Notes under the pieces: model-generated
The model's database searches: none
Told to the model about the DNA's origin: nothing
The model's input: only the letters and a program-made list of their open reading frames with translations
In this document: positions 1 to 19,141 of the stretch, in pieces
Position numbering within the stretch: the first letter of the stretch is position 1
How the letters are laid out: the number at the start of each line of letters is the position of its first letter
Made by a program: the position numbers and the translations under genes
IMG/VR virus record: IMGVR_UViG_3300034062_005626
Strand: one strand, 5' to 3'
DNA: 64,000 bases
DNA from: a virus
Taxonomy: Duplodnaviria > Caudoviricetes

Positions 1-730
1 CACTTTGTTTGTTTTCCTCATTAAAATCCGTCCAATGTTTTGTTCTACCTTCTCTTGTGTATTCATGCCAAACAACTGTTTTATGTGGGTGAAATAAATC
101 ATAACCTAATGTATATGACCTAATAGATAAACTGATTTCATCACCAGCAAAGTAAATGTTGGGGTCATACTTATATTCTTCACAATGTTTTCCAATCGTA
201 AAGAAAAAGTGACCACTAACAAATCTTGCAGGTATTGGTTTATCTAACTCTTTCCAATTTGGAATTTCGTGAGGTCTAAACATAATTGTTCCTCCCGGTG
301 TGAAGTTAGATGCAACCATTTTGTATGGCTCAACATTTAATAATTTATTAGTTTTGGGTTCATACATGCCTGCATATGCAGTAATGATTGGTTTTTTTGA
401 ACCTGTCATTTTCATCATTTCAATCAACTCAATATCCCAATCCTGTAAGAATCTATGGTGTGAATCTAATTGTAATGTGTATTCTTCTCCGTTCCATAAT
501 TTTTGAATTTCTGAACGAGCCCAACACAGTCCTTTACTTTTTGACCAATGATAATCTAATATTTTGAATCTTTCGTCATTTGCAAATTCTCCCATAGATT
601 CATTTTCATCTCGTTGCCAACAAATACCAAAGGTTAAATTCTCAGGGTTTTTTGCCTTTGAAATGCAGTCTCTGATTGTCGGTAAAAGTTCGGGGTCTCT
701 ATAAGACGCAATTTGGACAAATATTTTCAT
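1..730 (-). CDS. GT60/GlcNAc-family glycosyltransferase (Gnt1/Skp1 alpha-GlcNAc-transferase-like), 3' end runs off the window
   Basis: Not in the ORF track (edge-truncated). Manual translation from ATG at 730: MKIFVQIASYRDPELLPTIRDC...GLCWAR...YTLQLDSHHRF...FVSGHFFF...YFAGDEISLSIRSYTLGYDLFHP...WHEY. The IFVQIASYRD start, the LDSH (DxH) metal motif and the G-D/E-E motif are typical of this family. Confidence 0.8.
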   Translation of the reverse strand, partial: MKIFVQIASYRDPELLPTIRDCISKAKNPENLTFGICWQRDENESMGEFANDERFKILDYHWSKSKGLCWARSEIQKLWNGEEYTLQLDSHHRFLQDWDIELIEMMKMTGSKKPIITAYAGMYEPKTNKLLNVEPYKMVASNFTPGGTIMFRPHEIPNWKELDKPIPARFVSGHFFFTIGKHCEEYKYDPNIYFAGDEISLSIRSYTLGYDLFHPHKTVVWHEYTREGRTKHWTDFNEENKQS

Positions 731-777
731 ATTATCATTTTAAACAAAAATAATACCTCAAGACTAAAAATAAATAA

Positions 778-1560
778 TTAAACTTGTGTGATTGTAACAA
801 TCAAAGATGGAATGGCCGGTCTAGTGGGTGATGTAAAAGGTCCTGCATCATATTGTAAACCTAATCTTGTGTCATCTACTCTAAATTTTAATTCTAAAAA
901 TTCATTGGCTGAAAGGTCTATTACAAAATTCCAAGCAGCTACAGTTCTACCATTATTAGAATTTACGACAACTTGTGTATTTGAGTTAGTAACATTACTA
1001 CCATTTTTAGCTAACCATATATCCATAGTTTGTGCTGAACCACCACCTGTTGATTCTAATTGAGCGGAAAATTGTAAATTATAAACACCGGCACTTGCAA
1101 CAACAAATTTTGTATTTGCCGATAATGTTACACCATTAGAACCAGTATTGGTGTCCGCACTCATAGAAAACGCACTAGAGGTACTTGAAACATATTGGTC
1201 CGTTGTGGACAAAAAAGACCCCCATGCTCTACCACTACCATCGACGCCACTGGTTCCGTTAGTTCCGCTAGTACCATTTGTACCACTGGTTCCGTTAGTT
1301 CCGCTTGTGCCGTTAGTTCCGCTAGTTCCACTTGTACCGTTAGTTCCCGAGGACCCGCTAGTTCCATTTGTACCACTGGTTCCTGAAGACCCATTAGTTC
1401 CATTTGTGCCTGAAGTTCCGGCAATTGATGCAGTTATAGCACTAAATGGTACTGCTTCTGTTCTACCTGATATTATTGGATTGTAATTTACAATTACCAA
1501 TAATGAATTAGAGTAACCTGTCGATGCTGCAGGTAAGGATGATATTGGTAAATCCGGCAT
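778..1560 (-). CDS. Putative trimeric fibre/adhesin: G-X-Y repeat plus C1q/TNF-like C-terminal domain
   Basis: 260 aa with about 20 Gly-X-Y triplets. C-terminal beta-rich segment AGVYNLQFSAQL...IWLAKNG...WNFVIDLSANEFLEL resembles C1q/BclA-type heads. Late motif upstream. Confidence 0.6.
   Translation of the reverse strand: MPDLPISSLPAASTGYSNSLLVIVNYNPIISGRTEAVPFSAITASIAGTSGTNGTNGSSGTSGTNGTSGSSGTNGTSGTSGTNGTSGTNGTSGTNGTSGTNGTSGVDGSGRAWGSFLSTTDQYVSSTSSAFSMSADTNTGSNGVTLSANTKFVVASAGVYNLQFSAQLESTGGGSAQTMDIWLAKNGSNVTNSNTQVVVNSNNGRTVAAWNFVIDLSANEFLELKFRVDDTRLGLQYDAGPFTSPTRPAIPSLIVTITQV
1231..1419 (-). repeat. Coding tandem repeat (GTS/GTN/GSS)n, about 20 Gly-X-Y triplets without proline
   Basis: Protein GTSGTNGTNGSSGTSGTNGTSGSSGTN...GVDGSG; 9/18-nt periodic DNA with varied third positions. 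Confidence 0.95.
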
Positions 1561-1583
1561 AGTCTTTTATAGATAAATATTAT

Positions 1584-1871
1584 TTAAGTTATTTTGATTC
1601 TAAAACCATCTTCCTGTAATATATAAAAACCAGTTTCTTGTAATAAATAACTTCCACAATCCACTTCTATTTCCATGATACAACCATTAGCATCTATAAT
1701 TTTTATATATATAACATCTTCATTTGGAAAAAAAGATTCTGAATTAATAACTACATTTGGTGGTATTGAAGTAACTCCTGACACATAAAAACAATAGGTA
1801 TTTGATGGGTCACAAATGAAAACATCATAAGGACTTAATCCGCTAGTTACTCCTGTTATTTGTATATTCAT
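1584..1871 (-). CDS. Small putative virion protein, single degenerate SprB-like module plus C-terminal LLQE..ILQEDG motif
   Basis: 95 aa; ITGVTSGLSPYDVFIC...IKIIDANGC parallels the SprB repeat consensus and the neighbouring 69-aa ORF. Confidence 0.5.
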   Translation of the reverse strand: MNIQITGVTSGLSPYDVFICDPSNTYCFYVSGVTSIPPNVVINSESFFPNEDVIYIKIIDANGCIMEIEVDCGSYLLQETGFYILQEDGFRIKIT

Positions 1872-1874
1872 ATA

Positions 1875-2084
1875 TTAACAATTTATTTCATAAAAAGTTT
1901 CACAACCATTACCATCAATCGCTTTTATTATTAAGGTATTTGCTGCAGAATAAAATGCAGATAAAACATAAACGGTAAGTGTTGTACCAAGTAATGAACA
2001 ATTATTTCCGTTTTCATCACAAACGTAATAACTAACGGGTGGTGTTCCTCCTGTCAATCCTGTTATGTCAACTGAGTACGGCAT
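1875..2084 (-). CDS. Small putative virion protein, single SprB-like module
   Basis: 69 aa; ITGLTGGTPPVSYYVC...IKAIDGNGC; abuts the SprB-repeat gene. Confidence 0.5.
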   Translation of the reverse strand: MPYSVDITGLTGGTPPVSYYVCDENGNNCSLLGTTLTVYVLSAFYSAANTLIIKAIDGNGCETFYEINC

Positions 2085-4388
2085 CTATGTATAACAAGTT
2101 ACATCGTAGTCTATTGTTAATTCTAAAGTGAAGTTAGCATCAGCCAATGGGTCGGTGTCTCCCTCACAATTTGATTCAATGTGAATTGTATTATCTGTCA
2201 AACTTATAGTATAACTACTAATATCAGTAACACCACTTAATATCCCTTCTATTGTTGATTGCCAAACAGTGTCTTGTGGAACATCATTCAATGTTGTTGC
2301 GGTATAGAATGTTTGAGTAAATGCACTTCCGTTAATATTCATTTCAAGTATAAATTCTGCAGTATTTAAACTACATCCCGTATATCCACTTGTAACATCA
2401 ATATACCCCTCATTTAACATTTCTAAAAATCCACGTTTAGCCCCAACTGTTGTTGCAAATTCATTTTGACACAATTCAACAACAGAGTATGTTGTTACAT
2501 TATTTCCTGAACATGTGATTGTAAAATTGTGAGTTTGTGAACATCCGCGACTGTCTGTAACTTCAACAGAATACGTACCGGCGGTTAAACCGGATATAGT
2601 TGAACCCGTTTGTCCTGACGGAACATTATCTGACCAATCATAACTAAATGTTGGTTCTCCGTCGTATATTAATACTTGCGCAGTTCCATTTTGACCACCA
2701 TAACATTGTGTTGTTGATATTGCACTAATTAAACTACCTCCCGTTGATATTGTTACTTGTTCATCAATTTGACATCCATCTGCATCAACAACTGTAAGAG
2801 TATAACTACCAGCCACTAAATTATTAAAGGTATATGAAGATAATGATGTATCTAATACTGATTGACCGTCACTTAATATATAGTCCAAAGGTGATGTGTA
2901 ACCAGTCCCAACTTGAACTTGTAAAACACCATCATTTTGTGAACATGTTGAACCAGTTGTTGTTGCACTTATTTCAAACTTATCAGTAGATGCCAACGTA
3001 ACAGTTGTTGTGTATTCACAGTTTGTTCCTGTTGCAGATATAATTAAGTCATACGTATCATTTGTTAAACCTGAAAACGTACTAGTTAAACTTTGTGTTG
3101 TATTGGTATATACTAAACCGTTCGTTTGTCCCGATAATATATAACTATAAAAATTATTTGAACCTTGTAATGAAACAGTTAATGAACCAAGTTGTTGACT
3201 ACAATTAGAATTAGTTACTACCGTATCAACTATAAAAAATGAATTTTCAGCATTAATAAATGCACTTATTATTTGTTTACAAAAGTTCGCATCTGTAATT
3301 TCTAAATTGTAATTTCCACTTGATAAACCTGATAAGGTTAATGTATCGCTTAATGTATACCCTACTTGTGATGTGCTGGCGGAATAATAATAAGGGACAC
3401 TACCCCCTGTAATTGTAAATGTAATACTACCGTCTGATGAAAAACAAGAAGGATTTACAGAAGTAACAATACCAACTCCAAGTGGGTCGGCTTCACCTAT
3501 AGTATCACTTTTAGTCACCACACAACCATTACCATCAGTTACAGTACAACTATAAGTTCCAATTGTTAAACCTGTTATTGTTTGACCCGTCTCACCGTTA
3601 TTCCAAAGATATGTGTAAGGTGATGTTCCTGTAAGTCCTGTGATTGAAAGTTTACCTTCATTAATCACACAAGTAGACGTATTTACTTTCCAAAAACCAA
3701 AATCAAAATTTGAAGAGGATGAAACAATTGCGTTAGATGTTGTTGCAGTTGACAACCCATAATCCACAACTTGAACAAAATATGTGTCCGCAGATAGATT
3801 TGTGAATGTATAAGGGAACAAAGTTGTTACTTGTGATTCAACAGTACCTCCTGATGTGGATAATATTAAAGTATAAGGCGACATTTGAGAGTCGGCACTT
3901 ACAGTTAGTGTTCCATTATTTTCTCCACATGTGGTTGGTGTTACGTCAATAATGTCAGTATAAAAACAACCTGTTATAATAACGTTTATATATAATTCGT
4001 TATTTTCAAACCCTTCAGAATCATTTAACCTAAACACATAGGTGTCGGCGGTTAATCCTGAAAATGTTATTGGACTTGATGACGTTTGAGCACTTATTCC
4101 ACCAGGTTGTATATTATCTATTGTGTATGGAGGTATTCCACCATATGGTGAAAATGTTACAGAACCCGTTGGGGATGAGCATGTACCTGTGATTGTAAAT
4201 GTTAGTCCTAATGGTTGGTCATCGCAAGTTGGTGTACAAGCGGACATTGTGTTATAAACACCAAATGTTGATGCTGAGTACGCACTATCAAAACAAATAG
4301 TTTCCCCTAAAGAAACTCCAACTACAAAGTTACCACAACAATCATAGTACCTATATACCCCATCCGTTAAACCCGAAAAACAAGCCAT
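2085..4388 (-). CDS. SprB-repeat adhesin-like virion protein
   Basis: 767 aa with about seven repeats of G-S/T-x-T...GG-x-PY-x-Y-x-W...I/F-x-GL-x-AG-x-Y-x-V-x-V-T-D-x-x-GC (e.g. TSPYTYLWNNGETGQTITGLTIGTYSCTVTDGNGC), the SprB repeat consensus. Confidence 0.8.
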   Translation of the reverse strand: MACFSGLTDGVYRYYDCCGNFVVGVSLGETICFDSAYSASTFGVYNTMSACTPTCDDQPLGLTFTITGTCSSPTGSVTFSPYGGIPPYTIDNIQPGGISAQTSSSPITFSGLTADTYVFRLNDSEGFENNELYINVIITGCFYTDIIDVTPTTCGENNGTLTVSADSQMSPYTLILSTSGGTVESQVTTLFPYTFTNLSADTYFVQVVDYGLSTATTSNAIVSSSSNFDFGFWKVNTSTCVINEGKLSITGLTGTSPYTYLWNNGETGQTITGLTIGTYSCTVTDGNGCVVTKSDTIGEADPLGVGIVTSVNPSCFSSDGSITFTITGGSVPYYYSASTSQVGYTLSDTLTLSGLSSGNYNLEITDANFCKQIISAFINAENSFFIVDTVVTNSNCSQQLGSLTVSLQGSNNFYSYILSGQTNGLVYTNTTQSLTSTFSGLTNDTYDLIISATGTNCEYTTTVTLASTDKFEISATTTGSTCSQNDGVLQVQVGTGYTSPLDYILSDGQSVLDTSLSSYTFNNLVAGSYTLTVVDADGCQIDEQVTISTGGSLISAISTTQCYGGQNGTAQVLIYDGEPTFSYDWSDNVPSGQTGSTISGLTAGTYSVEVTDSRGCSQTHNFTITCSGNNVTTYSVVELCQNEFATTVGAKRGFLEMLNEGYIDVTSGYTGCSLNTAEFILEMNINGSAFTQTFYTATTLNDVPQDTVWQSTIEGILSGVTDISSYTISLTDNTIHIESNCEGDTDPLADANFTLELTIDYDVTCYT

Positions 4389-7336
4389 TAATTACAATTT
4401 ATACTAGCGTTTATACCTATATTTAAGTACAGTTTTTTATTTGTGAAGTCATCATAACAAGTTGAATTACTTATTACTAAAGTTTTACCCGCAAAATAAT
4501 AGTTTAGTCCATGATTATATAATTCTTGTAATTTGTCATCAATTGCCGCTGTTATTTGAGCAACCGTTGGCACATCATAAAAACCATATCCTGTGTAGAA
4601 TTGCTCTTGAACTAAAATCGTACTGTCTAATCTACAATCCACAAACCACTCCGATACTATACTTGTTAAATCACAATTGGCTTGAGTGTACCCACTCTGT
4701 TTTACAACCGCACTTAAAACTTGTGTTAGATAAGTTTGTGGACTGTCAAAGTTTAATTCACATCTTAAAGTTTGGTCTATACAATCATATCCAAATAACT
4801 GACCGTCAAATGTACAAGGTACACATTCAACTTGTATAAATTGACATCCTCTTTGTCTTCTCCATATGAATTTTTGTCTATGGAAAATTGAGTTTTCCAT
4901 TTTTTGGCCCGTGAGCCAAAGTGTTGTTGCAGGAACCAACTGTTCCAATAATCTTTGCCAATAATCACCAATACCTAATGTATAGTCTATCATTTTTTGA
5001 TAGGTAAATTGATTGGAAGGTATTCCTACTGTTTGTTGTGATTGAAGGTATTTCCAATATATTGATTGAAGTGTAGGGTAACCACCTGTCTTACCGTCGA
5101 AAATTGTTTGTCTATTTCTAACATTAATCATGTTGGTAAAGAACGATTGAGCAAATTCAAAAAATGTTTTTTGTTTTGGTTGTGGGTTTACAAAAGTCCA
5201 ATCTATCGCTCCTGGATATGGATAAGGTGACGTTAAACCGGTATTTGGAATTGGGTAATCGTATTTAACACACATATCCCACACATCATAAACTAACCCT
5301 TGACCCATATTAATATTTAATTCAATATTTTTTGAGTTTATAAGTTGTTTGTCGTTTGTAATGGTGTAATCAACCCCATTAAAGTTTGAATTATTTTTTC
5401 TGTTTCCTATGTCGTCAACGGACCAAGACTTTTGGTTGTCGTAAATTTTTGTTATTGTATACCCTTCATTCAAAAATGGAAACTTAGTAAACCTGTCTAA
5501 GTATTCTTGACCATATGAAAAAGGTTGTAGTTGTGTTACAACACTTGGTACGTTTTGGTCAAGTTGTGAATTTTCTAAATCGACAACTTGTGGTGACCTG
5601 TGTTTTGGGCTAGATTCAAACCAACCTGAACCTTTTTGGAAAAAGTAATCATCTGTCTGTGTTGGTGACTTAGGGTAACCATCGTCAGAAATACCATAAT
5701 CATTTCTTGACGTTGTTACAGTTTGCACTTCTCCGTTTGTTGTAAATCCGGTATATGTTACTCCTTGAATAGAAAATGTATTTGTTGGGTCTAATGCAGG
5801 TTTTTCAACATAAACCGTACCTCCACTTATTTTAGCATAATTTTCTTTAAATTGGTCCACATTAATTTTTGAATCGACCAAATACACAACTTCATTAAAT
5901 TCTGTTATTGCTTCAGGTGCACCAATCAATCTCATTATGTATTCCAAAGATGTTCTTGTTCCTTTGGATTTAAACATATATGCTGAGTTTAGAATTACAT
6001 TTCTAAAATATTGATAGTTTAATTCTGATGGTGTTTTTTCTTCTGCTTGACCTGAATAAATTTGGTCGGTTGTTGTACTAAACACCGCATCTAATAATTG
6101 GTCGTTATTAATTGGCGATATATTTGTATTTACCCCCAAGGTTTGTGCTAAATTAGTTAGTAACTGTGATGGTATATCATTTCCCACAACATAGTTCACT
6201 GAGTTCATATTCGCCAAGGCATCAATAAACTTTTTAACCTCATCAAAACTTCTACCATATATTTGTAGAATTTTTTCCATCTTTTGGTCCTGAGTGTCAA
6301 AGTCCTTGAATGCCCCTGTTGTTAGAAATCTTGAAATCAAATTGGTTTTGTAATCGTCAAGATTAAGTGCGATTTCACTTAAAGTTGTTAAATACGTGTC
6401 AAAATTAGATGTCACAATATCTAAATTCCATAAACCGTCCAATACCCATGTTACACTTTGTACTTTTAATGTAAAAATCCCATCTGAATCGTAGTATGGG
6501 TACTCAAAAATCGCAGTATACTTTGGTTGGCTATTTCTATTTAATATAAAATCCTCAACCTCATCAAAATCATCTTGGAATATTTCAGCAGTTTTTTGTG
6601 TATTTGGTTTTACTATAAATGTTTCTGTTGAAATTGTTTGTCCTGAAAAAGGGTCACCTTCAACTGTGAATGTAATTGTTCCTGCTGTTAATGTCGCTGA
6701 AGGTATAAAATCAACTACAGGGTATTCTGTTGTAAGAGCAGAAAAATATAAACTAAAGTTTTCGTAGTTATTTGTTAAATCACGGTATTTTGAAACTTTT
6801 ATAGGTCTAACTTGAATGTTTCTTGCTGCGTTTACAGAGAAGTCAATGTCAAAAGGATTAACTATCCACGGAACATCAACATCAAACGTTGTTAAATTTT
6901 CAATAGGGTCAAAAGCAATATTTGTAGCGGTGTATCCTGTTGTAAATGACAGAGTCGTTCCTCTTACTTCTAAGGCCGCCGGAAAATAACTTATTATTTT
7001 TGTTACGGACGCTGATAATCTTTTTTGAAGTGAACCATACAACGTAAAACTCGTTACTTGTGATATATCAAAATTTGGATATACTGAAAAGTTTTTTTGT
7101 ATGATTTTTTTTGTTTGTTCAACATCTTCAATATTTAAATTTTCTAAATTATAAAGTTGTGAGAAAACACCTAAATCAAAATTACGATTTACCTTTTCAT
7201 AAATGGCAGTTGTAAACTGAAAGTTTCCTTGTGTTAATCCACCTCCTGTCACCAACTGTAATCCAACTATGTTGTCAAACGCAGTTAAAGTTCCTACAGG
7301 TGGAGCAGGTGGATATCTAAATATTTGTTTTGCCAT
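4388..7336 (-). CDS. Putative baseplate wedge protein (P2 gpI / T4 gp7-like) with large accessory regions
   Basis: 982 aa. Motif LLTNLAQTLG...NSAYMFKSKGTRTSLEYIMRLIG...ITEF resembles the KGT motif of Tail_P2_I/gp7. Lies downstream of gp25 and gp6-like genes. Confidence 0.5.
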   Translation of the reverse strand: MAKQIFRYPPAPPVGTLTAFDNIVGLQLVTGGGLTQGNFQFTTAIYEKVNRNFDLGVFSQLYNLENLNIEDVEQTKKIIQKNFSVYPNFDISQVTSFTLYGSLQKRLSASVTKIISYFPAALEVRGTTLSFTTGYTATNIAFDPIENLTTFDVDVPWIVNPFDIDFSVNAARNIQVRPIKVSKYRDLTNNYENFSLYFSALTTEYPVVDFIPSATLTAGTITFTVEGDPFSGQTISTETFIVKPNTQKTAEIFQDDFDEVEDFILNRNSQPKYTAIFEYPYYDSDGIFTLKVQSVTWVLDGLWNLDIVTSNFDTYLTTLSEIALNLDDYKTNLISRFLTTGAFKDFDTQDQKMEKILQIYGRSFDEVKKFIDALANMNSVNYVVGNDIPSQLLTNLAQTLGVNTNISPINNDQLLDAVFSTTTDQIYSGQAEEKTPSELNYQYFRNVILNSAYMFKSKGTRTSLEYIMRLIGAPEAITEFNEVVYLVDSKINVDQFKENYAKISGGTVYVEKPALDPTNTFSIQGVTYTGFTTNGEVQTVTTSRNDYGISDDGYPKSPTQTDDYFFQKGSGWFESSPKHRSPQVVDLENSQLDQNVPSVVTQLQPFSYGQEYLDRFTKFPFLNEGYTITKIYDNQKSWSVDDIGNRKNNSNFNGVDYTITNDKQLINSKNIELNINMGQGLVYDVWDMCVKYDYPIPNTGLTSPYPYPGAIDWTFVNPQPKQKTFFEFAQSFFTNMINVRNRQTIFDGKTGGYPTLQSIYWKYLQSQQTVGIPSNQFTYQKMIDYTLGIGDYWQRLLEQLVPATTLWLTGQKMENSIFHRQKFIWRRQRGCQFIQVECVPCTFDGQLFGYDCIDQTLRCELNFDSPQTYLTQVLSAVVKQSGYTQANCDLTSIVSEWFVDCRLDSTILVQEQFYTGYGFYDVPTVAQITAAIDDKLQELYNHGLNYYFAGKTLVISNSTCYDDFTNKKLYLNIGINASINCN

Positions 7337-8244
7337 TATTCAATAATATTGGTAAAGTTTTTACTGTAATCAATGTTATTATTTCTATCTTGTCTAACTT
7401 CAAATAGAAGTTCACTAAAGTTGTTTCTAATTTCAAATAGGTTGTATTGTTTGTAAATGTTTCCTGCCGTATCGTAAAGAGTGTAAATACCATCCTCAAT
7501 ACTTTTGGTTTGATTACCATAAAGAGCAATTGCTAAAGTGTCAATGTCGTATTCCGCCATTTGAACATCAATAGTAATAGGATTAAAGAAAGTATTTGTT
7601 ATTATAATATTTTGGTTTGGTTGACCTATAAAAGGAATTGCACTTGGTTTATTAGATGGAGATGAAGAAGGTGAAAGTGTACAGAAAATTAAATCTGTTG
7701 GGTTGTCTACATATCTATATCTAATAGACTTTTGTGTTGTGTTAACCTGTTCTGTAATTACAGGTTCACAATAAAATGATGACGTAACAAGTCTATAAAA
7801 GTTTGGTATTTTTGTTCCGTTATTATTTAAGTATTCAACTCTAAAACCAACAAGTCCTTGATTAACAAATTTATTTCTATACTGTGAAGGAACATTATTA
7901 ATATCAATAATAATACCTTTTACGTTTGGTAGTGCCGATAAAACTCCACAGTCATTTATTGTTGTTCTAATTTCAGCAGGTCTAATCATTAAAGTATAAA
8001 TCCCCAACTTACTAAACTCGGTTGCGGGCAATCTTAAATTATATAAACCACCTAAAATTTCCACGTTATTATTACCACCAGTATCTGAATTATGAAAATA
8101 TGGTGTTAATATATTTGCGGCATTTAATTTTTTTAATGTGAAATTATTTGTAACATCCCTTGAAGGTGTATAGTGTAAGATGATTTCAACATCATCAGGT
8201 GATACATCAGCGGGTCTTGTTATTCCATATGTGCCAAGTGCCAT
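7336..8244 (-). CDS. Putative virion structural protein, unknown function
   Basis: 302-aa ORF, translationally coupled to its neighbour, TATTTATA motif upstream, inside the baseplate/tail cluster. Confidence 0.55.
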   Translation of the reverse strand: MALGTYGITRPADVSPDDVEIILHYTPSRDVTNNFTLKKLNAANILTPYFHNSDTGGNNNVEILGGLYNLRLPATEFSKLGIYTLMIRPAEIRTTINDCGVLSALPNVKGIIIDINNVPSQYRNKFVNQGLVGFRVEYLNNNGTKIPNFYRLVTSSFYCEPVITEQVNTTQKSIRYRYVDNPTDLIFCTLSPSSSPSNKPSAIPFIGQPNQNIIITNTFFNPITIDVQMAEYDIDTLAIALYGNQTKSIEDGIYTLYDTAGNIYKQYNLFEIRNNFSELLFEVRQDRNNNIDYSKNFTNIIE

Positions 8245-8276
8245 TTTTTTATTTTATAAATAGTTTATGTCTTTTT

Positions 8277-9365
8277 TTATGTTGTATTAATTTTATAATA
8301 TCCGTAACCATATCTTACCATATCACCAATATTATCAACTTCACCTAATCTTTGTAATGGTTCAAACGCGCTATATTTACCTCTTTCGATATAAACATCG
8401 CTTTGAACTTCAGGGTCCATAACAAAATCTAACAAATATTCATTTTTTGTAATCGCTGAAAACAATAAATCATTTTGGGTAAATCCTGAACTTTGTAATA
8501 AGTACAGAGTTTGTCCGTTTGGAAAGTCGTAATAAGTGATGTCATTTATTGTGTATGAAGTATACCCTGACGTTATAGAATTTATTTGTCCGTATGGTAC
8601 TCCATTTTTTATAAAAGTATAACCAACTGTATACGGGTTAGGTCCCCATCTTTTTACATCCGTAAGTTTAGATTTGGTATAACCTGAAACAGGAAAAGGA
8701 ATTGTCGTGTATGAACTTGATATTTGTGATGATACATTATTTTGTGAATCACCTGTTGCTATAAAATCGTAACTTACAGGTATACCTGACCAATAACCAC
8801 CTTGTGGTGTGAAAGTAAAATTACCTTGTAAATTTGTTATTGTTGCCCCCGTTAAAGGAAGTACAATCGGTTTTTCAATTATATTCAACCCCCAACTATT
8901 TTGACCAGAAAAAGTTATGGTATACGCACTTGGTGTGGTGGGGTATGTATGTGTCAATGGTTGGGTTCCAACCTGTTGAGTTGGGCTCCCATCACCCCAA
9001 TCAACAAAGAAACTTGATAGTTTTAAAAATGATATTTCTATGTCACCCGATGTATTATAAAAATTAACATCGTAAGGTGTTAATGTATCAGCAGAAAATA
9101 AAAAATTAGACAACACATCTTTTTGTAACATAAGACCATCAAACTCACTATAAAAACCAATATCGTTCATAGTTTGAGTGAACATAATTGGTATTGTTAA
9201 ACCTGTTAAAAGTGATGTACCTCCCGTTCCTCCACTCAATATGTAAGACATACCTGAATACACACCAAAGGTTTGTGACCCACTGTCACCACTATAAGTT
9301 TCACCAAAAATATCTGTAGAAATATTTTCAGGGGATACTATTAAAGAATATTTTTCAGCTTCCAT
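8277..9365 (-). CDS. Putative virion protein with PKD-like domain
   Basis: 362 aa; FFVDWGDGSPTQQ...THTYPTTPSAYTITFSG matches the WDFGDG...HTY PKD signature. Confidence 0.6.
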   Translation of the reverse strand: MEAEKYSLIVSPENISTDIFGETYSGDSGSQTFGVYSGMSYILSGGTGGTSLLTGLTIPIMFTQTMNDIGFYSEFDGLMLQKDVLSNFLFSADTLTPYDVNFYNTSGDIEISFLKLSSFFVDWGDGSPTQQVGTQPLTHTYPTTPSAYTITFSGQNSWGLNIIEKPIVLPLTGATITNLQGNFTFTPQGGYWSGIPVSYDFIATGDSQNNVSSQISSSYTTIPFPVSGYTKSKLTDVKRWGPNPYTVGYTFIKNGVPYGQINSITSGYTSYTINDITYYDFPNGQTLYLLQSSGFTQNDLLFSAITKNEYLLDFVMDPEVQSDVYIERGKYSAFEPLQRLGEVDNIGDMVRYGYGYYKINTT

Positions 9366-10207
9366 TATGGGTTTCCGTATTCATACCATTTTATAACATT
9401 AACCGAATCACCAACTCTTTGAAGAACAGGTGCTTGGTTTTGTTGTGGGATTTCTTTGTAAACTTGATATTCAAAGTTTGCAAAATCTAACTCAACTTTA
9501 TAATAAAAATATTGTGATTTATTAAAATTAAATTTGTTATTTGCAGAAAAAGTAGATTGTGGTTCATTCATAAACCTTACAAATTGACCTGTCTTCGCAT
9601 TAAAAAACTTAGCGGTCATATAAAACTCTGTAATATTTATAAAATCAGTTTCTTTTAACCAATATATAAAAAATCCTTCTTTGTCGGAACCTGTATAATC
9701 AAGTTTAAATTTTGGTTTTTTAACATTCACTTGTGTTTGATTGTTTAATGGACCTAAAAAACCAACTCTTGTTTGTCCTTGTTGTGTTGGTAATATTACA
9801 CTAAAATATGCCTTTTGGTTTTCATTTGTTTTTGTGTCATAAAAATCCAATTTGAAAAAACTACCTTTGAATGAATTTGCAAAATAATATAATTCAGGGT
9901 CAGTAAATGTTGCATTATCATAGTCAACTGCCCAATCATTAGATGTTGCGGCAGTAACAGAAACGGTAGAATCTAAAAAATAAAATTCATAATTTATGTC
10001 TGTAACATTTGGTGTTTGCGAGTATTCTTTATTTGCGAATCTTGTAGTTTCAAAATCATCAATACCATTTATTAAATCTTGTAAAATATCAGTTTCAAAT
10101 TGAACGATTCCATCGTTTCTACCACCCATGTCAAAAGTTATTTCAACCGGTATGTTAAAAGCCGTATCTTCTGAAGTTACACTAAACCTATAATAATTAT
10201 TATTCAC
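9365..10207 (-). CDS. Putative virion structural protein, unknown function
   Basis: 280-aa aromatic/beta-rich ORF overlapping both neighbours in the tail cluster. Confidence 0.5.
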   Translation of the reverse strand: MNNNYYRFSVTSEDTAFNIPVEITFDMGGRNDGIVQFETDILQDLINGIDDFETTRFANKEYSQTPNVTDINYEFYFLDSTVSVTAATSNDWAVDYDNATFTDPELYYFANSFKGSFFKLDFYDTKTNENQKAYFSVILPTQQGQTRVGFLGPLNNQTQVNVKKPKFKLDYTGSDKEGFFIYWLKETDFINITEFYMTAKFFNAKTGQFVRFMNEPQSTFSANNKFNFNKSQYFYYKVELDFANFEYQVYKEIPQQNQAPVLQRVGDSVNVIKWYEYGNP

Positions 10208-11915
10208 AATCGTCGTTAGTTATTTGTTGATATTCGTTTGAGAATACATTGTTATTTCTTCGAATAGGATATTGTAAAAATATACAATTTAAAAACGGAT
10301 AATGAGCTCCGTTGATGAATGGGTTATTTACCCCAATCCCATCACTATCTATATATCCATAAGTATATAAATCTCTCCAATACCATTTGTTATTATATTC
10401 ACTAAACCAAGAATACCCAGGTATATTGTCTACAGTGTCTTTTGTTCCATTTTCAATATAATCACTAAAAGCTCTAATGGGTATTGAATGGTGTGGGTTG
10501 TACAAATAACCATCAGGATAGTTTTGATTTCCCGTTGTTTGAAACAACAAATCGTTAAATGAATATTTGTGAATGGCTTTAGATAAAACATACTCTCTTT
10601 GTTCCATGTAGTTATATTCACAAAAATCTCCTAAAATTACATCACCTTGATTTAATATTTCATTATAATAAAATGTTTGTCCATTTAACGAATATGAATT
10701 TGTTGGTATATTATCTTTATTTAAACTATTGTTATGGTTCCACCATGTGTCCACTGAATTTTCTAAAAAATTAAAATTCCAACCTACGTCAATTCCGGTT
10801 TGTAGGCCATTTTGATTAACAAATGGTTTATTAAACCACCCCATATATCCTCTGTTTATAATTGTTAAAAACAACTCAGTTAATGGTTTTCCGTTGTTGT
10901 CTATGTAACCCCCTATTCTTACGTCTTTATCAAACGTGAAAGAAAATGTCTGAGCGTTATTTTTTACAGAAACTCTTTGTACTTGATTTGGTGTTAGTGC
11001 CGAATACTCTAATTTTTTATCTATTGCAAATGGGTTATTTTCAAATCCTGCTTTACTAATATTACATTGTTCACTGTTTTTGATAATCTTGTGTAATCTA
11101 ACATAGTATATGGATTTTGTTTCTGCAGAATTAGCAGGTTCAGTTATTCTTTTAAGATTTCCAAAAACACCCGTTTGTATATCTAATGTTGGATATTTTA
11201 AATCATAAATTGTAAAAACTTTATTTTCTGAATCGATTGTTCCATCACCCAAAGAATAAACTTGAAATATAGTTTTATTATTAATTGGTGTCGATAATTC
11301 AACATATTGTCCAATTTGTAAATTGTGATTTGTACCACAATAAAAATAAACTAAAGATTTTCCATTAAATTTACCTGTCGTTAAAACATAAGGTATTCCG
11401 TCACCAGCAACAAACCCCCCATTGGTTACTCCAAACTTTTCATCAGTATATGACATTGTTTGTGCGGTTGTACTTGAAAACGCATAACTAACATAAAAAG
11501 ACCAATTATACGTTGAAGCACTTTTAGGGACAAATGGTACATGTCCTGTAATACCGCTAAATCTTTGAATTGAGAACTCGTCAAACTGAGGGTTTCCTTC
11601 CCAAAAGTTTGAGTTGTTGGACGCATTACTTATTGCGTTTGTGTAATATAAATTATTTTTAAACGGTGTGTAAGATGTTTTACCGGTTAATGTATTATCA
11701 AATACATTTGTAATCTTACCAGCAAGTCTAAATTTATCACTCTCCTGTCTTTCTGTTTCAAAGAGCGTTTGTTGATTTACTAAGATACTTCTATCCCCTT
11801 CAATTAACTCTCTTCTATCACCAATTAATGGTGGTTGGAGCCAAACATCTTTATCTGTATTCCCAGCATACCTTTTGGACCCAATAACAATTCTTATTTC
11901 ATTTTCGTTACTCAT
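10200..11915 (-). CDS. Putative virion structural protein, unknown function
   Basis: 571-aa ORF with coupled start/stop overlaps in the tail cluster. Confidence 0.5.
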   Translation of the reverse strand: MSNENEIRIVIGSKRYAGNTDKDVWLQPPLIGDRRELIEGDRSILVNQQTLFETERQESDKFRLAGKITNVFDNTLTGKTSYTPFKNNLYYTNAISNASNNSNFWEGNPQFDEFSIQRFSGITGHVPFVPKSASTYNWSFYVSYAFSSTTAQTMSYTDEKFGVTNGGFVAGDGIPYVLTTGKFNGKSLVYFYCGTNHNLQIGQYVELSTPINNKTIFQVYSLGDGTIDSENKVFTIYDLKYPTLDIQTGVFGNLKRITEPANSAETKSIYYVRLHKIIKNSEQCNISKAGFENNPFAIDKKLEYSALTPNQVQRVSVKNNAQTFSFTFDKDVRIGGYIDNNGKPLTELFLTIINRGYMGWFNKPFVNQNGLQTGIDVGWNFNFLENSVDTWWNHNNSLNKDNIPTNSYSLNGQTFYYNEILNQGDVILGDFCEYNYMEQREYVLSKAIHKYSFNDLLFQTTGNQNYPDGYLYNPHHSIPIRAFSDYIENGTKDTVDNIPGYSWFSEYNNKWYWRDLYTYGYIDSDGIGVNNPFINGAHYPFLNCIFLQYPIRRNNNVFSNEYQQITNDDCE

Positions 11916-14900
11916 CTTGGTTCAATATATATGCTTTGATGTATCTGTTGATTGCACTTTTACCTTTGTTTAATCCAAAATAAAAATGATTAGGTCCTCC
12001 CACAATAAATGATTGTTGAGTACCTGCCGGCCAATTTGGATTTGATAAACCTTGTGGTGTTTGATTAAATATGTAACCTCTTCCTCCTGTTGTTGATGGG
12101 TTAAAGTATGGTGTAGTTGGAGGGTTAAAACTAAAGTTTTGGTATTTTTGATAATAAAAACTACCATTAGCCAAAACATCAGTAACCCAATCATTTGTGT
12201 CAGAACCAAAAATAGTTGAAGTTGTTGAAGATGACCACTGATATGTTGGGACTACTTGTGTGTTAGGGTAACCAAAATAATTTGTAAGGTTTGGTGCGAA
12301 TGTTTGAATACCCGGACTTAGTGTTAATCTATTAATTGTATTTGAACTAAAGAAGATTCCCATTAAAGCGTCTCCCGTACCAATATACAACTCATTATCA
12401 GTGTAATTATCTTCATCAAACTCTTCAATTCCATACTCAGAGTTTATTGAAAACATTTGAGCTACATCACCATCTATTCTGTCTTCACTTCTTGAAAACA
12501 TTCTGTTTATTGATGAATCACCCAAACCTAAAACTTGACCCCAAAAATTAGAGTTAATAAGTCTTGAAATAATAAACAACTGTAAAATTTCAGAAGTATC
12601 ATTGTATGAAGTACTTTTGATTGTTTCAATCAAGTACCCTTCAAAATTAGGGTTAGTACATATTTCTTTTGTAAACTCATCTCTTGGTCCTAAGTCCATA
12701 ATGGTGGTCGGGAAAAACAAATTTCTAACATTCATCCCTTTGAAGTTCGCGTCTTCAAATGTTGAACTTGTGATATTTAATTTTCTTGGTTTTTGTCCAA
12801 TAAATTTACTTCCGTCATAAATAGCACCTCTATAAAACAATGAATTTGTGGTTCCTCTTGTATAAAATATAGGTCCTTGATATGGTCTTAATGTACTATC
12901 AGGACTACCACAAAACTTATATTTTTTTGGTTGTCCCGCAATGTTAAAAATTGTTTGTTTTTTCAATGAGAACATATATAAAGAACCATTGACCCAATTG
13001 TTTTGAAACACATGTGAAAATATTCCTCTACATGCAGCAAACACCATTCTAAATCTTGTTTTCCATTCAAAGAAATATGTAACATCTTTTGGTATTGAAA
13101 CAAGTAATGGACTATCAACAAATTTGTAACATCCCCCTGACATTCTTTTTCCATTCGGATTTTCACTACATGGATTTTGAACTGAAAAAGATGTCCCACC
13201 GCCTTGGTAACATTTTAATACTGTCATGTTTTCACAGGAAAGTGATGCCAAAACTGTACTTGATATTTGACTCGGAGTGTCTCCTGTTATATCTTGAGCA
13301 TTATTTGTAGTGTCATTAGGACCATTTGTTGATGGTGCCAATGAAGTACCACCATCTTCGTCTACTGTGTAGACCGCAAAGTTGTCGTTTAAAAATAAAC
13401 TAAACGAGTTATTACCACTTAATTCTGTCGCACTTGATGTAGGTAGTCTATCAGACCTAAATACAATGTTAGAAGAGTTTGAAATGGAAATGTTCGATAC
13501 TACCGAAGTGTGGTATGCTGGTGAATAAACTCTTGTGGTTGTTGTTGCAATGTTTATACTTGTTCCCGGAGTTGCGTTTGAAGCAATTAAAGTTCCACCT
13601 TCAATATTACCTTGAGCACTTAACACACCATTTGTCCATTGGAACGCCAATTTATTATTACCAACACTTGGTTGTATATTTGAATATACACCAGGTGTGG
13701 AAGTAAAATATGATAAAGTCACAGCGTCTGATGAATAAGCTTTAAATGTTTGTTGTGACTTATCTGTTGAGTTATAAAAGTAAGGTGAGTTGTTTGTAAA
13801 TGCACTAAACAATGTACTATCAGGAGTAAAACCAAAAGGTGGGTGATATAATGACGCATTTGTATTATTTGAAACTAAATGTGATTCAGGCGTTTTATAA
13901 TCATTAAACCAAGCTCCACTTCCTGAGTTTTGTTGTATTGGTACATTAAGATAATAACTACCTTCAATAACAGGACCCGAACCTAAGTTAAATCCAAATA
14001 ATTTCGATAGGTCATATCTTATATTTTGTTTGTCGGTGTATGGGTCCGTACCTCTTGTTAAAAATATAATTTCATAGTTTGCAAAATTATCAATAAATTT
14101 GATTGGGAATACGTAGTCACATTGTTGTACTGGTGTACCATAACAGAATCTTTGTGTCTTTTTAAACAAATATTTGTTAAGTAATCCTCCCGTTGTGTTT
14201 GTTAATCCTGAAAACTGTGATACAGTACCTCCTGTGATAACTTGAAAATATTCAACCCCCGCAGGATATTTGTAATCTTTTCCATCTTCAGATATATTTA
14301 ATTTCAAGTTTACAGTTTGTTGTAAACCTGCTTGATTAATGTAATTAACAGGAACTGTCACTAAACTTGTTGCGTTATATGGTGTAGTTCCCGTAATACT
14401 ATTAGTATTAAACTGATTGGAATTAGTTATACCCGTTAAGTTGGGGTCATTTATTAAGTTGATGTCTTGGAATGTTAAAAGTTGTCCAGGTTGTAAACCG
14501 TTGAAAGTTCCACTATCAACAAATAACATCATAACACTATCGGTAAACGGTTGTGACGCATCTAATGTTGTTGTATTTGGAATGTTGTTTCTAACAGTTG
14601 TTTGAATTAAATTATCACCTTCAAAATATCTTTGTCTAATATTTGCTAAATTCAAAGATTGTGATAGTGTAACGTCATTCGCTAATACTTTTATTCCCCC
14701 TTGTGCCGGATATTCGGCAATTGGAGTTTTAACTAACTTATCATTATCATTTCCAAGATTTTGGAATTGGTAACCCGCCATCGCTTGGACAACTCCATTG
14801 TTAAAAGCGTCAGGGTCATTTGCCGAAGATGCTTGCGATGAGTTGTAAACACTATAAGAAGTTGTGGAATTTGTATTCGCTAAAGGACTATTATTTTCTG

Positions 14901-18674: not shown

Positions 18675-18676
18675 AA

Positions 18677-19141
18677 TTATATGTTAATTATTATAAATTC
18701 TCTTGAACCAAACGAGTTGTTGTCGTCCGTATAATCTATTGTAAGTTTAGCTGTGTATTCTTGAGTTGCTCTACCAGGTATTCTATATATATCACTTGTT
18801 CCTAATAACTCTTGGTTAATGTCACCTGGAGCCTCATCTGATTGTAAATATGGAACCACTTTAATTTCATTTATAGTTAAATTTGGTATGTACTTGTCAA
18901 CCTGTTGTTGTATTTCAGATTTGATTCCGTCAAACGTTTCACCATCCAAAGGGTCAAAAATAAATTCATATATACGTGTTCCAAAATCAGGATTATAATA
19001 TCTACTACCTCTTGCGGTTAATATCAAATGTAAAAGGTCTGCCCGTATCTCATCACCAGCATTTTCGGTTAAATCAAAATAATAAGATTTTGGACTATCC
19101 CTAAAGGGAAAATTAACACCATAAGTTCTTCCATCTGCCAT
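18677..19141 (-). CDS. Baseplate wedge subunit gp25-like (GPW/gp25)
   Basis: 154 aa; IRADLLHLILTARGSRYYNPDFGTRIYEFIFDP is the canonical gp25 motif. Confidence 0.9.
   Translation of the reverse strand: MADGRTYGVNFPFRDSPKSYYFDLTENAGDEIRADLLHLILTARGSRYYNPDFGTRIYEFIFDPLDGETFDGIKSEIQQQVDKYIPNLTINEIKVVPYLQSDEAPGDINQELLGTSDIYRIPGRATQEYTAKLTIDYTDDNNSFGSREFIIINI

What the first reader, a model, noticed from the sequence alone, without database searches (positions are those of the whole stretch)
1..1560. Candidate phage-encoded virion glycosylation system: GT60 GlcNAc-transferase directly after a Thr/Ser/Asn-repeat fibre
Seen: an unannotated ORF (<1-730) with GT60-family motifs is the last gene visible in the tail/fibre run, right after a fibre whose repeat is almost only Gly/Thr/Ser/Asn (8 N-G-T/S triplets). 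The window also encodes a (TP)13 mucin-like linker. Established: GT60 enzymes add alpha-GlcNAc to protein hydroxyls (hydroxyproline of Dictyostelium Skp1, Thr of trypanosome mucins). Inference: the phage O-glycosylates its own fibres, e.g. for shielding from proteases, host recognition or stability. Protein glycosylation systems are poorly described in tailed phages.
Basis: partly seen in the sequence, partly recalled or inferred. Interest (0 to 1): 0.72.

Follow-up and report, generated by a model that had tools for sequence, protein, structure and literature searches.

The report
Phage mucin-type fibre glycosylation enzyme
A large freshwater phage carries, inside its tail-fibre gene block, an enzyme of the family that starts mucin-type sugar chains in protists. 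In many unrelated phages this enzyme sits right after threonine-rich or collagen-like fibre genes, so these phages probably sugar-coat their own fibres, though no biochemistry exists yet.

Summary
Window 2-730 (- strand) encodes the first 243 of 413 residues of a PF11397/GT60 glycosyltransferase (E 3e-63). It has the DxH motif typical of GT60 and GT27. Its fold is closest to Dictyostelium Gnt1 and to polypeptide GalNAc-transferases.

It lies 47 bp after a collagen-like fibre gene (778-1560, -) with 21 proline-free G-T-S/N triplets. Both are at the far end of a co-directional block that starts with baseplate-wedge genes of a jumbo-class freshwater myovirus.

One correction: the gene is not the last of the run. 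In 99%-identical contigs it is followed by an overlapping GT6-like transferase, a protein with four (PT)n linkers, and more structural genes.

Across 31 clusters of related enzymes, a protein with a long Thr-X or G-T/S collagen tract lies directly upstream far more often than chance (9.9 clusters against 2.2 expected; 0 of 5000 permutations reached this). These neighbours belong to 10 unrelated protein families. The pairing also holds where the enzyme has moved elsewhere in the genome.

In divergent phages the enzyme heads clusters of further glycosyltransferases and methyltransferases. No prolyl hydroxylase and no hydroxymethyl-pyrimidine route was found.

Best reading (about 0.6): it starts O-HexNAc glycosylation of Thr-rich fibre tracts. 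The collagen fibre is one plausible substrate, not the only one. Other agents of this scan have flagged the same pattern on other DNA.

The parts
2..730 (-). N-terminal 243 aa (of 413) of a soluble GT-A glycosyltransferase, PF11397 / GT60-like. DxH motif at nt 458-466, WHEY (C-His) at nt 59-70. No signal peptide or membrane segment is visible; the catalytic core starts at residue 2.
731..777 (-). 47-bp spacer between the fibre gene and the transferase gene. No terminator-like hairpin.
778..1560 (-). 260-aa collagen-like fibre: N-terminal segment, 21 proline-free G-T-S/N triplets, and a C-terminal globular domain of about 150 aa. Candidate substrate.
1231..1419 (-). The G-X-Y run itself (aa 48-110): X = Thr in 17 of 21, Y = Ser or Asn in 19 of 21, no Pro.
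1584..2084 (-). Two small Cys-containing module proteins (95 aa and 69 aa). In relatives the 95-aa homologue is extended by a (TP)15-18 tract and lies directly upstream of the transferase.
2085..4388 (-). 767-aa SprB-repeat protein, 28% Ser+Thr. Its homologues carry Thr-X tracts of 9-22 units in many relatives.
4388..16761 (-). Six further co-directional structural-type ORFs (982, 302, 362, 280, 571 and 1617 aa) with no family match. They are syntenic in relatives.
16836..19141 (-). Baseplate wedge genes (gp6-like 612 aa, gp25-like 154 aa) that open the co-directional block ending at the transferase.
59650..62163 (-). 837-aa viral protein with a (PT)13 linker at nt 60205-60282, beside the DNA polymerase B gene. 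It could be a further substrate, but it is not linked by position.

Best explanation
The gene encodes a soluble, metal-dependent GT-A transferase of the GT60 / PF11397 kind, related to the polypeptide alpha-GlcNAc-transferases of protists and to Skp1 Gnt1.

Proposed mechanism (inferred): it is made late in infection together with the baseplate and fibre genes. It acts in the host cytoplasm and uses a host UDP-HexNAc, most likely UDP-GlcNAc. It puts the first sugar on Thr/Ser hydroxyls of extended, Thr-rich tracts in the phage's own fibre-type proteins. In this phage those tracts are the proline-free G-T-S/N collagen stalk encoded just upstream and the (PT)n linkers of the protein two genes downstream.

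The next gene overlaps the transferase stop codon and encodes a GT6-like GT-A enzyme, which would add a second sugar. In other phages longer cassettes of transferases and methyltransferases would extend and cap the chain. The result would be a mucin-like coat that stiffens and protects the fibres.

Shown here: family, fold, motifs, gene order, and statistical association with Thr-tract proteins. Inferred: the donor sugar, the acceptor, the timing and the biological effect.
For: 1. Family. PF11397 at E 3e-63, or 2.7e-67 for the full length. D89-S-H91 and H222 are invariant in 45 diverse homologues. DxH in place of DxD is specific to GT27 and GT60 (PMC7185993).

2. Fold. The AF2 model has pLDDT 94. 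The best Swiss-Prot model is Dictyostelium Gnt1 (E 1e-25, TM 0.66), followed only by ppGalNAc-Ts. The top 41 PDB hits are all ppGalNAc-Ts. Every characterised relative acts on protein hydroxyls (PMC8724618).

3. Position. The gene lies at the end of an 18-kb co-directional block that opens with baseplate wedge genes. There is no terminator before it. The same slot is kept in dozens of relatives.

4. Neighbours.
- A protein with a Thr-X tract of 8 or more units, or a G-T/S collagen tract of 8 or more, lies at position -1 in 37 of 79 loci, at +1 in 15 of 79, at +2 in 25 of 78, and at 0-21% (mean about 8%) of loci at positions 3 to 8 genes away.
- Weighted by cluster: 9.9 of 31 clusters against 2.2 expected; 0 of 5000 permutations reached this.
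- After masking the repeats, the upstream proteins fall into 10 unrelated families.

5. Moved copies. Where the enzyme has left the syntenic slot, it again follows giant Thr-X proteins: G006 1314 aa, G008 2891 aa and 2461 aa, G010 1754 aa.

6. Partner enzymes.
- The overlapping next gene has a GT-A fold nearest to GT6, with an invariant E-D-D motif.
- In divergent loci the downstream genes include HtrL_YibB x11, GT10 x4, GT2-type x7, GT25 x3, GT34, GT7, GT8, GT17, FkbM x4 and TylF.
- GT60-HtrL fusions exist.

7. Precedent. C. difficile SgtA is encoded next to bclA3 and puts O-GlcNAc on Thr of its collagen repeats (PMC7157674).
Against: No biochemical or proteomic data exist for any phage member.

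The collagen-like fibre slot is variable, and it is empty in several close relatives that keep the enzyme (L014, L017, L022/23, L041, L053, L058).

Some homologues lie among small non-structural ORFs (L036, L039, L043, L044, L054, L068). Others lie beside DNA polymerase, RNase H, NUDIX and a carbamoyltransferase in Xanthomonas and Stenotrophomonas jumbo phages, with no Thr-X tract within 8 kb.

L105 and L113 keep a Thr-X protein at the slot but have a reverse-strand 195-aa ORF where the transferase would be. Those contigs are short, so the enzyme may lie elsewhere.

Thr-rich proteins are common in these phages (12% of genes), and fibre regions are hot spots for accessory genes. The clusters used in the statistics are still related by descent.
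Confidence: 0.6

Rival explanations
1. Host-directed transferase. The enzyme and the associated transferase clusters remodel a host glycoconjugate (LPS, capsule or a host glycoprotein) or a host cytoplasmic protein during infection, for example to block superinfection or take over the cell. On this view the position next to fibre genes is incidental.
For: - The PHROG category of phrog_24687 is 'moron, auxiliary metabolic gene and host takeover'.
- The downstream families in divergent loci (GT25, HtrL_YibB, GT10, GT8) are typical of LPS and O-antigen synthesis.
- Relatives carry a separate island of sugar-nucleotide epimerase and GT2 genes.
- Some homologues lie among small early-type ORFs.
Against: - The protein is soluble, with no membrane segment, and its closest folds are polypeptide transferases.
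- It recurs directly after Thr-tract proteins of 10 unrelated families, including after relocation.
- It is co-directional with the baseplate and fibre genes, with no terminator between.
Confidence: 0.15
2. Accessory-gene hot spot. The enzyme does glycosylate something, but its closeness to Thr-rich and collagen-like fibre genes only reflects that fibre modules collect mobile accessory genes and are rich in such tracts. Under this view the substrate is unknown.
For: - The slot directly upstream is highly variable.
- Tract-bearing proteins make up 12% of genes in these loci.
- L060, L190 and the L036/L043/L044 groups have no adjacent tract.
Against: - Permutation within the same loci gives 2.2 expected against 9.9 observed clusters at position -1.
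- The enzyme itself is the conserved element and the fibres around it vary, which is the opposite of a moron pattern.
- It is translationally coupled to a second transferase.
Confidence: 0.13
3. DNA glycosyltransferase. The enzyme adds sugars to modified bases of the phage genome to evade restriction.
For: - Many phage transferases modify DNA (review text in PMC12619734).
- Homologues at 39-45% identity in XacN1, Xoo-sp13, CM1 and RAS14 lie beside DNA polymerase, RNase H, NUDIX and a carbamoyltransferase.
Against: - No structural hit to DNA glycosyltransferases appears among the top matches, which are all polypeptide transferases.
- The only thymidylate-synthase-family gene in the 99%-complete relative G002 and in G004 passes the true ThyA equivalog model at 300-322 bits against a cut-off of 108. 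No hydroxymethylase is therefore seen.
- The gene lies in the fibre block, not the replication block.
Confidence: 0.07

Closest known systems
CAZy GT60 polypeptide alpha-GlcNAc-transferases of protists (Dictyostelium, Trypanosoma cruzi) and Skp1 hydroxyproline GlcNAc-transferase Gnt1
   Same: Same Pfam family (PF11397), GT-A fold, DxH metal motif, and no ricin-type lectin domain. Gnt1 is the best structural match (PMC8724618, PMC7185993). Gnt1 is also a soluble cytoplasmic enzyme.
   Different: Only 24% identical to Gnt1. It carries an extra C-terminal beta domain of about 90 aa (residues 323-413) that Gnt1 lacks. It is encoded by a tailed phage, and no prolyl hydroxylase partner was found. 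Its activity is untested.
Metazoan polypeptide GalNAc-transferases (GT27), the initiators of mucin-type O-glycans
   Same: Closest solved structures, with all of the top 41 PDB hits. They share the DxH motif and act on dense Thr/Ser/Pro tracts like those encoded beside the phage gene.
   Different: Sequence identity is 12-17%. The GT27 enzymes are Golgi type II membrane proteins with a ricin lectin domain, whereas the phage enzyme is soluble with a different C-terminal domain.
Clostridioides difficile SgtA with BclA3 (and Bacillus BclA): glycosylated collagen-like spore filaments
   Same: The transferase gene lies next to the gene for a collagen-like protein whose G-X-Y repeats carry Thr. SgtA adds O-GlcNAc to those Thr residues from UDP-GlcNAc with Mn2+ (PMC7157674).
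   Different: SgtA makes a beta link, and its homology to the phage enzyme was not tested here. BclA3 repeats are G-P-T (Thr at Y), while the phage repeats are G-T-S/N (Thr at X, no Pro).
Mycobacteriophage virion glycosylation (Freeman et al. 2023, as cited in PMC12619734) and giant-virus capsid or fibril glycosylation
   Same: Virus-encoded transferases decorate the virus's own structural proteins.
   Different: In the mycobacteriophages the glycans are on C-termini of capsid and tail-tube subunits. Here the predicted targets are Thr-X or collagen tracts of fibre proteins, with a GT60 initiator. I could not read the primary paper.

Membership tests
Pfam PF11397 / CAZy GT60 | Sequence match to the family profile above the curated cut-off | tested here: met
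   214.7 bits for the window part and 228.2 bits for the full length, against a cut-off of 21
Pfam PF11397 / CAZy GT60 | GT-A fold closest to Gnt1 and to GT27 polypeptide transferases | tested here: met
   Gnt1 Q8T1C6 at E 1e-25, TM 0.66. The top 41 PDB hits are ppGalNAc-Ts.
Pfam PF11397 / CAZy GT60 | DxH motif in place of DxD, plus a C-terminal His ligand | tested here: met
   D89-S-H91 and H222 (WHEY) are invariant in 45 homologues. The motif rule comes from PMC7185993.
Pfam PF11397 / CAZy GT60 | Retaining transfer of alpha-GlcNAc from UDP-GlcNAc to a protein Thr, Ser or Hyp | not testable with these tools
   Needs an enzyme assay and glycopeptide mass spectrometry or NMR.
Skp1-type hydroxyproline pathway (P4H then Gnt1) | A prolyl 4-hydroxylase partner that creates the acceptor | tested here: not met
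   No PF13640 match in G002 (99% complete) or in G003-G005. Other 2OG-oxygenase families were not searched. The collagen run has no proline.
Mucin-type O-glycosylation system (initiator plus substrate tract plus elongating enzymes) | Initiator encoded with dense Thr/Ser(/Pro) tracts and further transferases | tested here: met
   Tract proteins are enriched at positions -1, +1 and +2. The next gene is GT6-like. Downstream transferase and methyltransferase clusters occur in divergent loci.
Mucin-type O-glycosylation system | Glycans actually present on the tracts | not testable with these tools
   No isolate or proteome is available.
Collagen triple-helix repeat protein (PF01391) | Uninterrupted G-X-Y repeats matching the profile | tested here: met
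   E 9.5e-9 with 21 triplets. Trimerisation was not tested.
Phage DNA glycosyltransferases | A hydroxymethyl-pyrimidine (or other acceptor base) pathway in the genome, and similarity to known DNA transferases | tested here: not met
   The ThyA homologues are true thymidylate synthases. No DNA-transferase structures are among the top hits. Only relatives could be searched, not the window's own whole genome.

The most novel reading that the evidence does not exclude
A widespread pathway of tailed phages that has not been described: a GT60 initiator plus lineage-specific elongating transferases and methyltransferases build mucin-type O-glycans on Thr-X stalks and proline-free collagen-like fibres of freshwater jumbo phages. 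Glycosylated Thr would take the role that hydroxyproline plays in animal collagen, stabilising and stiffening the fibres. The family has thousands of members in metagenomes, so glycosylated phage fibres could be common in lakes.
Probability: 0.4. Interest if true: 0.8.

Novelty: new variant of a known kind. Interest (0 to 1): 0.62.

Why it matters
Glycosylation of phage virions has been shown so far only in mycobacteriophages, and at the C-termini of capsid and tail-tube subunits. If GT60 enzymes coat Thr-rich and collagen-like fibres, a mucin-type pathway thought to belong to eukaryotes would operate in the bacterial cytoplasm under phage control.

The family is large: 6121 proteins at 90% clustering and 4416 clusters at 50%. 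Such a pathway would bear on fibre mechanics, protease resistance, adsorption and immune recognition.

It would also offer a compact two-gene tool for making mucin-like or collagen-like glycoproteins in bacteria. The claim can be tested directly by co-expression in E. coli.

Tried and rejected
- Megablast of window 1-8000 against 50,697 phage records found no match. The window's own assembly is not held, and the nearest record, G001, is a 32-kb fragment without the gene.
- Sequence searches of the PDB with the protein and with a 45-sequence profile gave nothing meaningful. Only fold comparison worked.
- Literature searches for GT60 or PF11397 or Gnt1 together with phage, and for O-glycosylated tail fibres, returned nothing relevant. 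The primary mycobacteriophage paper is not held.
- The 'moraphage' paper (PMC12619734) describes another lineage and only mentions transferases in general terms.
- The sigma-70 promoter scan is at chance level (13 found against 11.4 expected), and no terminator was found. This says little for a host of unknown promoter type.
- I considered reading the N-G-T/S triplets as N-glycosylation sequons and rejected it. They follow from alternating GTN and GTS triplets, and no GT60/GT27 enzyme is known to make N-links (established knowledge).
- Hydroxyproline as acceptor is rejected for the collagen run, which has no Pro, and no P4H was found in relatives.
- I did not run a complex prediction of the enzyme with its substrate, because the tool description says such pairs are rarely informative.
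Full report
**What is in the window.**
On the - strand, an ORF starts at ATG 730 and runs off the window at base 2. It gives 243 residues. It matches Pfam PF11397 'Glycosyltransferase (GlcNAc)' at E 3.3e-63 and the phage family phrog_24687 at E 1.6e-85.

Three IMG/VR contigs are 99% identical over it. They show the whole protein, 413 aa at L002:10001-11242.

Forty-seven bases upstream on the same strand, with no terminator-like hairpin between, lies a 260-aa ORF (778-1560). It matches the collagen repeat profile and several PHROG tail-fibre families. Its G-X-Y run covers residues 48-110 and has 21 triplets with no proline. X is Thr in 17 triplets, and Y is Ser in 11 and Asn in 8. There are nine N-G-[ST] triplets. 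The observation therefore stands.

**Which phage and which module.**
The window encodes tail sheath, tail tube, gp25-like and gp6-like baseplate wedge proteins, family B DNA polymerase, ribonucleotide reductase, gp32-like and UvsX-like proteins. Relatives reach 292 kb at 99% estimated completeness. It is a jumbo-class myovirus from freshwater metagenomes, and no cultured relative was found.

From the baseplate wedge genes (16836-19141) to the transferase, all ORFs are co-directional. Most have no family match, and one carries SprB repeats.

The transferase is not the end of this run. In the identical contigs it is followed by:
- a 265-aa gene that overlaps its stop codon;
- a 535-aa protein;
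- small Cys-rich modules;
- two proteins of about 525 aa (one with SprB repeats) and a 737-aa protein;
- only then a RuvC-like resolvase.

**What the enzyme is.**
An alignment of 45 homologues at 34-74% identity has invariant D89, H91 and H222, among other residues. DxH in place of DxD is the mark of GT27 and GT60 (PMC7185993).

The AlphaFold model is confident (pLDDT 94). Its best match among Swiss-Prot models is Dictyostelium Skp1 hydroxyproline GlcNAc-transferase Gnt1 (E 1e-25, TM 0.66, residues 2-322). Only polypeptide GalNAc-transferases follow it. The best 41 solved structures are all polypeptide GalNAc-transferases.

GT60 enzymes start mucin-type O-glycans with alpha-GlcNAc on Thr/Ser in protists (PMC8724618). 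Residues 323-413 form an extra beta domain that is absent from Gnt1. No signal peptide or membrane segment is apparent, so the enzyme should act in the cytoplasm, where UDP-GlcNAc is abundant (inference).

**The neighbours.**
The overlapping 265-aa gene has no Pfam match. It folds confidently (pLDDT 92) into a GT-A domain with an invariant E-D-D motif, and its nearest structures are GT6 enzymes: the ABO transferases and Bacteroides BoGT6a. These act on glycan acceptors, so a two-step cassette is plausible.

The 535-aa protein after it has four (PT)n linkers, up to (PT)15, between Cys-rich modules. In this phage the enzyme pair is therefore flanked by a Thr-rich collagen stalk on one side and a (PT)n protein on the other.

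**Comparative test.**
Of 302 IMG/VR contigs with a relative, I examined the 80 best.

The close lineage keeps a fixed gene order in which the slot directly upstream of the transferase varies:
- a G-T-S/N collagen-like fibre of 260 to 1153 aa in about 20 loci;
- a paralogue of a downstream fibre-type protein in others;
- nothing at all in L014, L017, L022/23, L041, L053 and L058.

The enzyme is therefore not tied to the collagen fibre alone. The (PT)n protein downstream is present in nearly all of these loci. In some loci the small upstream module protein has itself gained a (TP)15-18 tract.

In divergent phages (enzyme 41-57% identical), the gene directly upstream on the same strand is again Thr-rich. 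Examples are (TP) of about 60 units in L034, and T-P-T-X arrays in L055, L061, L074 and L075. L067 has a 1366-aa protein that is 35% Thr, and L080 has a 1792-aa protein that is 39% Thr. L072 and L076 have G-T-S collagen.

Counting proteins with at least 8 consecutive [TS]-X units or at least 8 G-[TS]-rich triplets:
- they lie at position -1 in 37 of 79 loci, at +1 in 15 of 79, and at +2 in 25 of 78;
- at positions 3 to 8 genes away they occur in 0-21% of loci (mean about 8%).

Weighted by 31 clusters of the enzyme at 80% identity, 9.9 clusters have such a gene at -1, against 2.2 expected when a random gene of the same loci is taken. None of 5000 permutations reached the observed value.

After masking the repeats, these upstream proteins fall into 10 families with no detectable similarity to each other.

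**A selection independent of the enzyme.**
A search with the conserved 737-aa downstream protein showed that most syntenic loci carry the enzyme. More distant relatives lack it at that slot.

In those relatives it is found elsewhere on the contig, and again directly after giant Thr-X proteins:
- G006: a 1314-aa protein, then the enzyme, then eight ORFs of 227-482 aa;
- G008: a 2891-aa protein, then the enzyme, a 568-aa protein and a 2461-aa protein;
- G010: a 1754-aa protein, then the enzyme.

The four records without a match are only 30-56% complete.

**Partner enzymes elsewhere.**
Ninety ORFs lying downstream of the enzyme in divergent loci include:
- HtrL_YibB (11), GT10 (4), GT2-type (7) and GT25 (3);
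- GT34, GT7, GT8 and GT17;
- FkbM (4) and TylF methyltransferases, and a carbamoyltransferase.

Fusion proteins of GT60 with HtrL_YibB, and tandem GT60 domains, also exist. This is what a glycan-assembly line headed by an initiating enzyme would look like.

**Rivals.**
DNA glycosylation is the classic role of phage transferases. The homologues in Xanthomonas and Stenotrophomonas jumbo phages do sit beside replication genes with no Thr tract nearby. In this lineage, however, three things argue against it. The fold points to polypeptide acceptors. The gene lies in the fibre block. The only thymidylate-synthase-family genes in two large relatives are true ThyA (300-322 bits against a cut-off of 108).

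A host-directed role cannot be excluded. The PHROG category, the LPS-type families in the clusters, and a separate epimerase and GT2 island in relatives all allow it.

The hot-spot explanation is weakened by the permutation test and by the fact that the enzyme is the conserved element while the fibres around it vary.

A Skp1-type hydroxyproline route is unlikely. No PF13640 hydroxylase was found in four relatives, and the collagen run has no proline.

**Comparison with what is known.**
Three known systems come closest:
- the protist GT60 / metazoan GT27 initiators of mucin-type glycans (same family or fold, and the same kind of acceptor tract);
- the C. difficile SgtA-BclA3 pair (a transferase gene next to a Thr-bearing collagen-like protein, with O-GlcNAc on those Thr residues);
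- mycobacteriophage virion glycosylation (cited).

The searchable literature does not connect GT60 with tailed phages. Databases carry only automatic names such as 'Glycosyltransferase, GlcNAc [uncultured Caudovirales phage]'.

Other readers and one follow-up agent of this scan noted the same pairing on other genomes. I treated those notes as leads and tested the association myself.

**Verdict.**
The family assignment is secure (about 0.95). The reading that the enzyme starts O-glycosylation of the phage's own Thr-rich fibre tracts is the best-supported one (about 0.6). That the collagen-like fibre at 778-1560 is itself a substrate is plausible but less certain (about 0.35-0.4).

I class it as a new variant of a known kind: virus-encoded virion glycosylation, with a different initiator and a different type of substrate.

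Noticed in passing
L002:12081-13688 (just beyond window base 1): A 535-aa Cys-rich protein with four (PT)n linkers, up to (PT)15, lies two genes downstream of the transferase. It is conserved in nearly all syntenic relatives and is a better-conserved candidate substrate than the collagen fibre.
   Followed up: partly
L002:11239-12036: A 265-aa gene overlaps the transferase stop codon (ATGA). It has no Pfam match but a confident GT-A fold nearest to GT6 (ABO transferases, BoGT6a), with an invariant E-D-D motif. It is absent from about half of the syntenic relatives.
   Followed up: yes
window 28717-35292 and 35601-41990 (- strand): Two giant ORFs (2191 aa and 2129 aa) lie between the replication genes and the tail sheath region. 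I did not resolve any family for them individually.
   Followed up: no
window, one of the 33 ORFs between 8277 and 63679 (exact ORF not resolved): An Fe/Mn superoxide dismutase is encoded in the window (PF02777 at E 1.5e-41, PF00081 at E 1e-22). This is an uncommon auxiliary gene for a phage.
   Followed up: no
window 1584-2084, and L002:13693-13983: Small paralogous modules of 69-96 aa share an 'SG.SPYD...C' signature and recur around the transferase. In relatives they are fused to Thr-X tracts or to larger fibre proteins, as if they were anchoring or assembly modules.
   Followed up: partly
window 59650-62163 (- strand): An 837-aa protein with a (PT)13 linker lies beside the DNA polymerase gene. 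Language-model look-alikes point weakly to Laminin_G_3 / ConA-like lectin domains of viral proteins (scores 0.91-0.92; a lead only).
   Followed up: partly
G002:C1:129000-143000 (99%-complete relative): A separate island holds a sugar-nucleotide epimerase/dehydratase and several GT2 genes about 70 kb from the GT60 gene. It might supply or extend sugars, or act on the host.
   Followed up: no
L045 and L047: Here the enzyme (54-55% identical) lies among G-P-T / G-P-I type collagen-like proteins, closer to the BclA repeat type. It is followed by a protein of about 725 aa whose N-terminus resembles the GT6-like gene.
   Followed up: no
P0121-P0132: Metagenomic proteins of 1100-2460 aa carry 2-4 tandem GT60 domains. 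Their origin and role were not examined.
   Followed up: no
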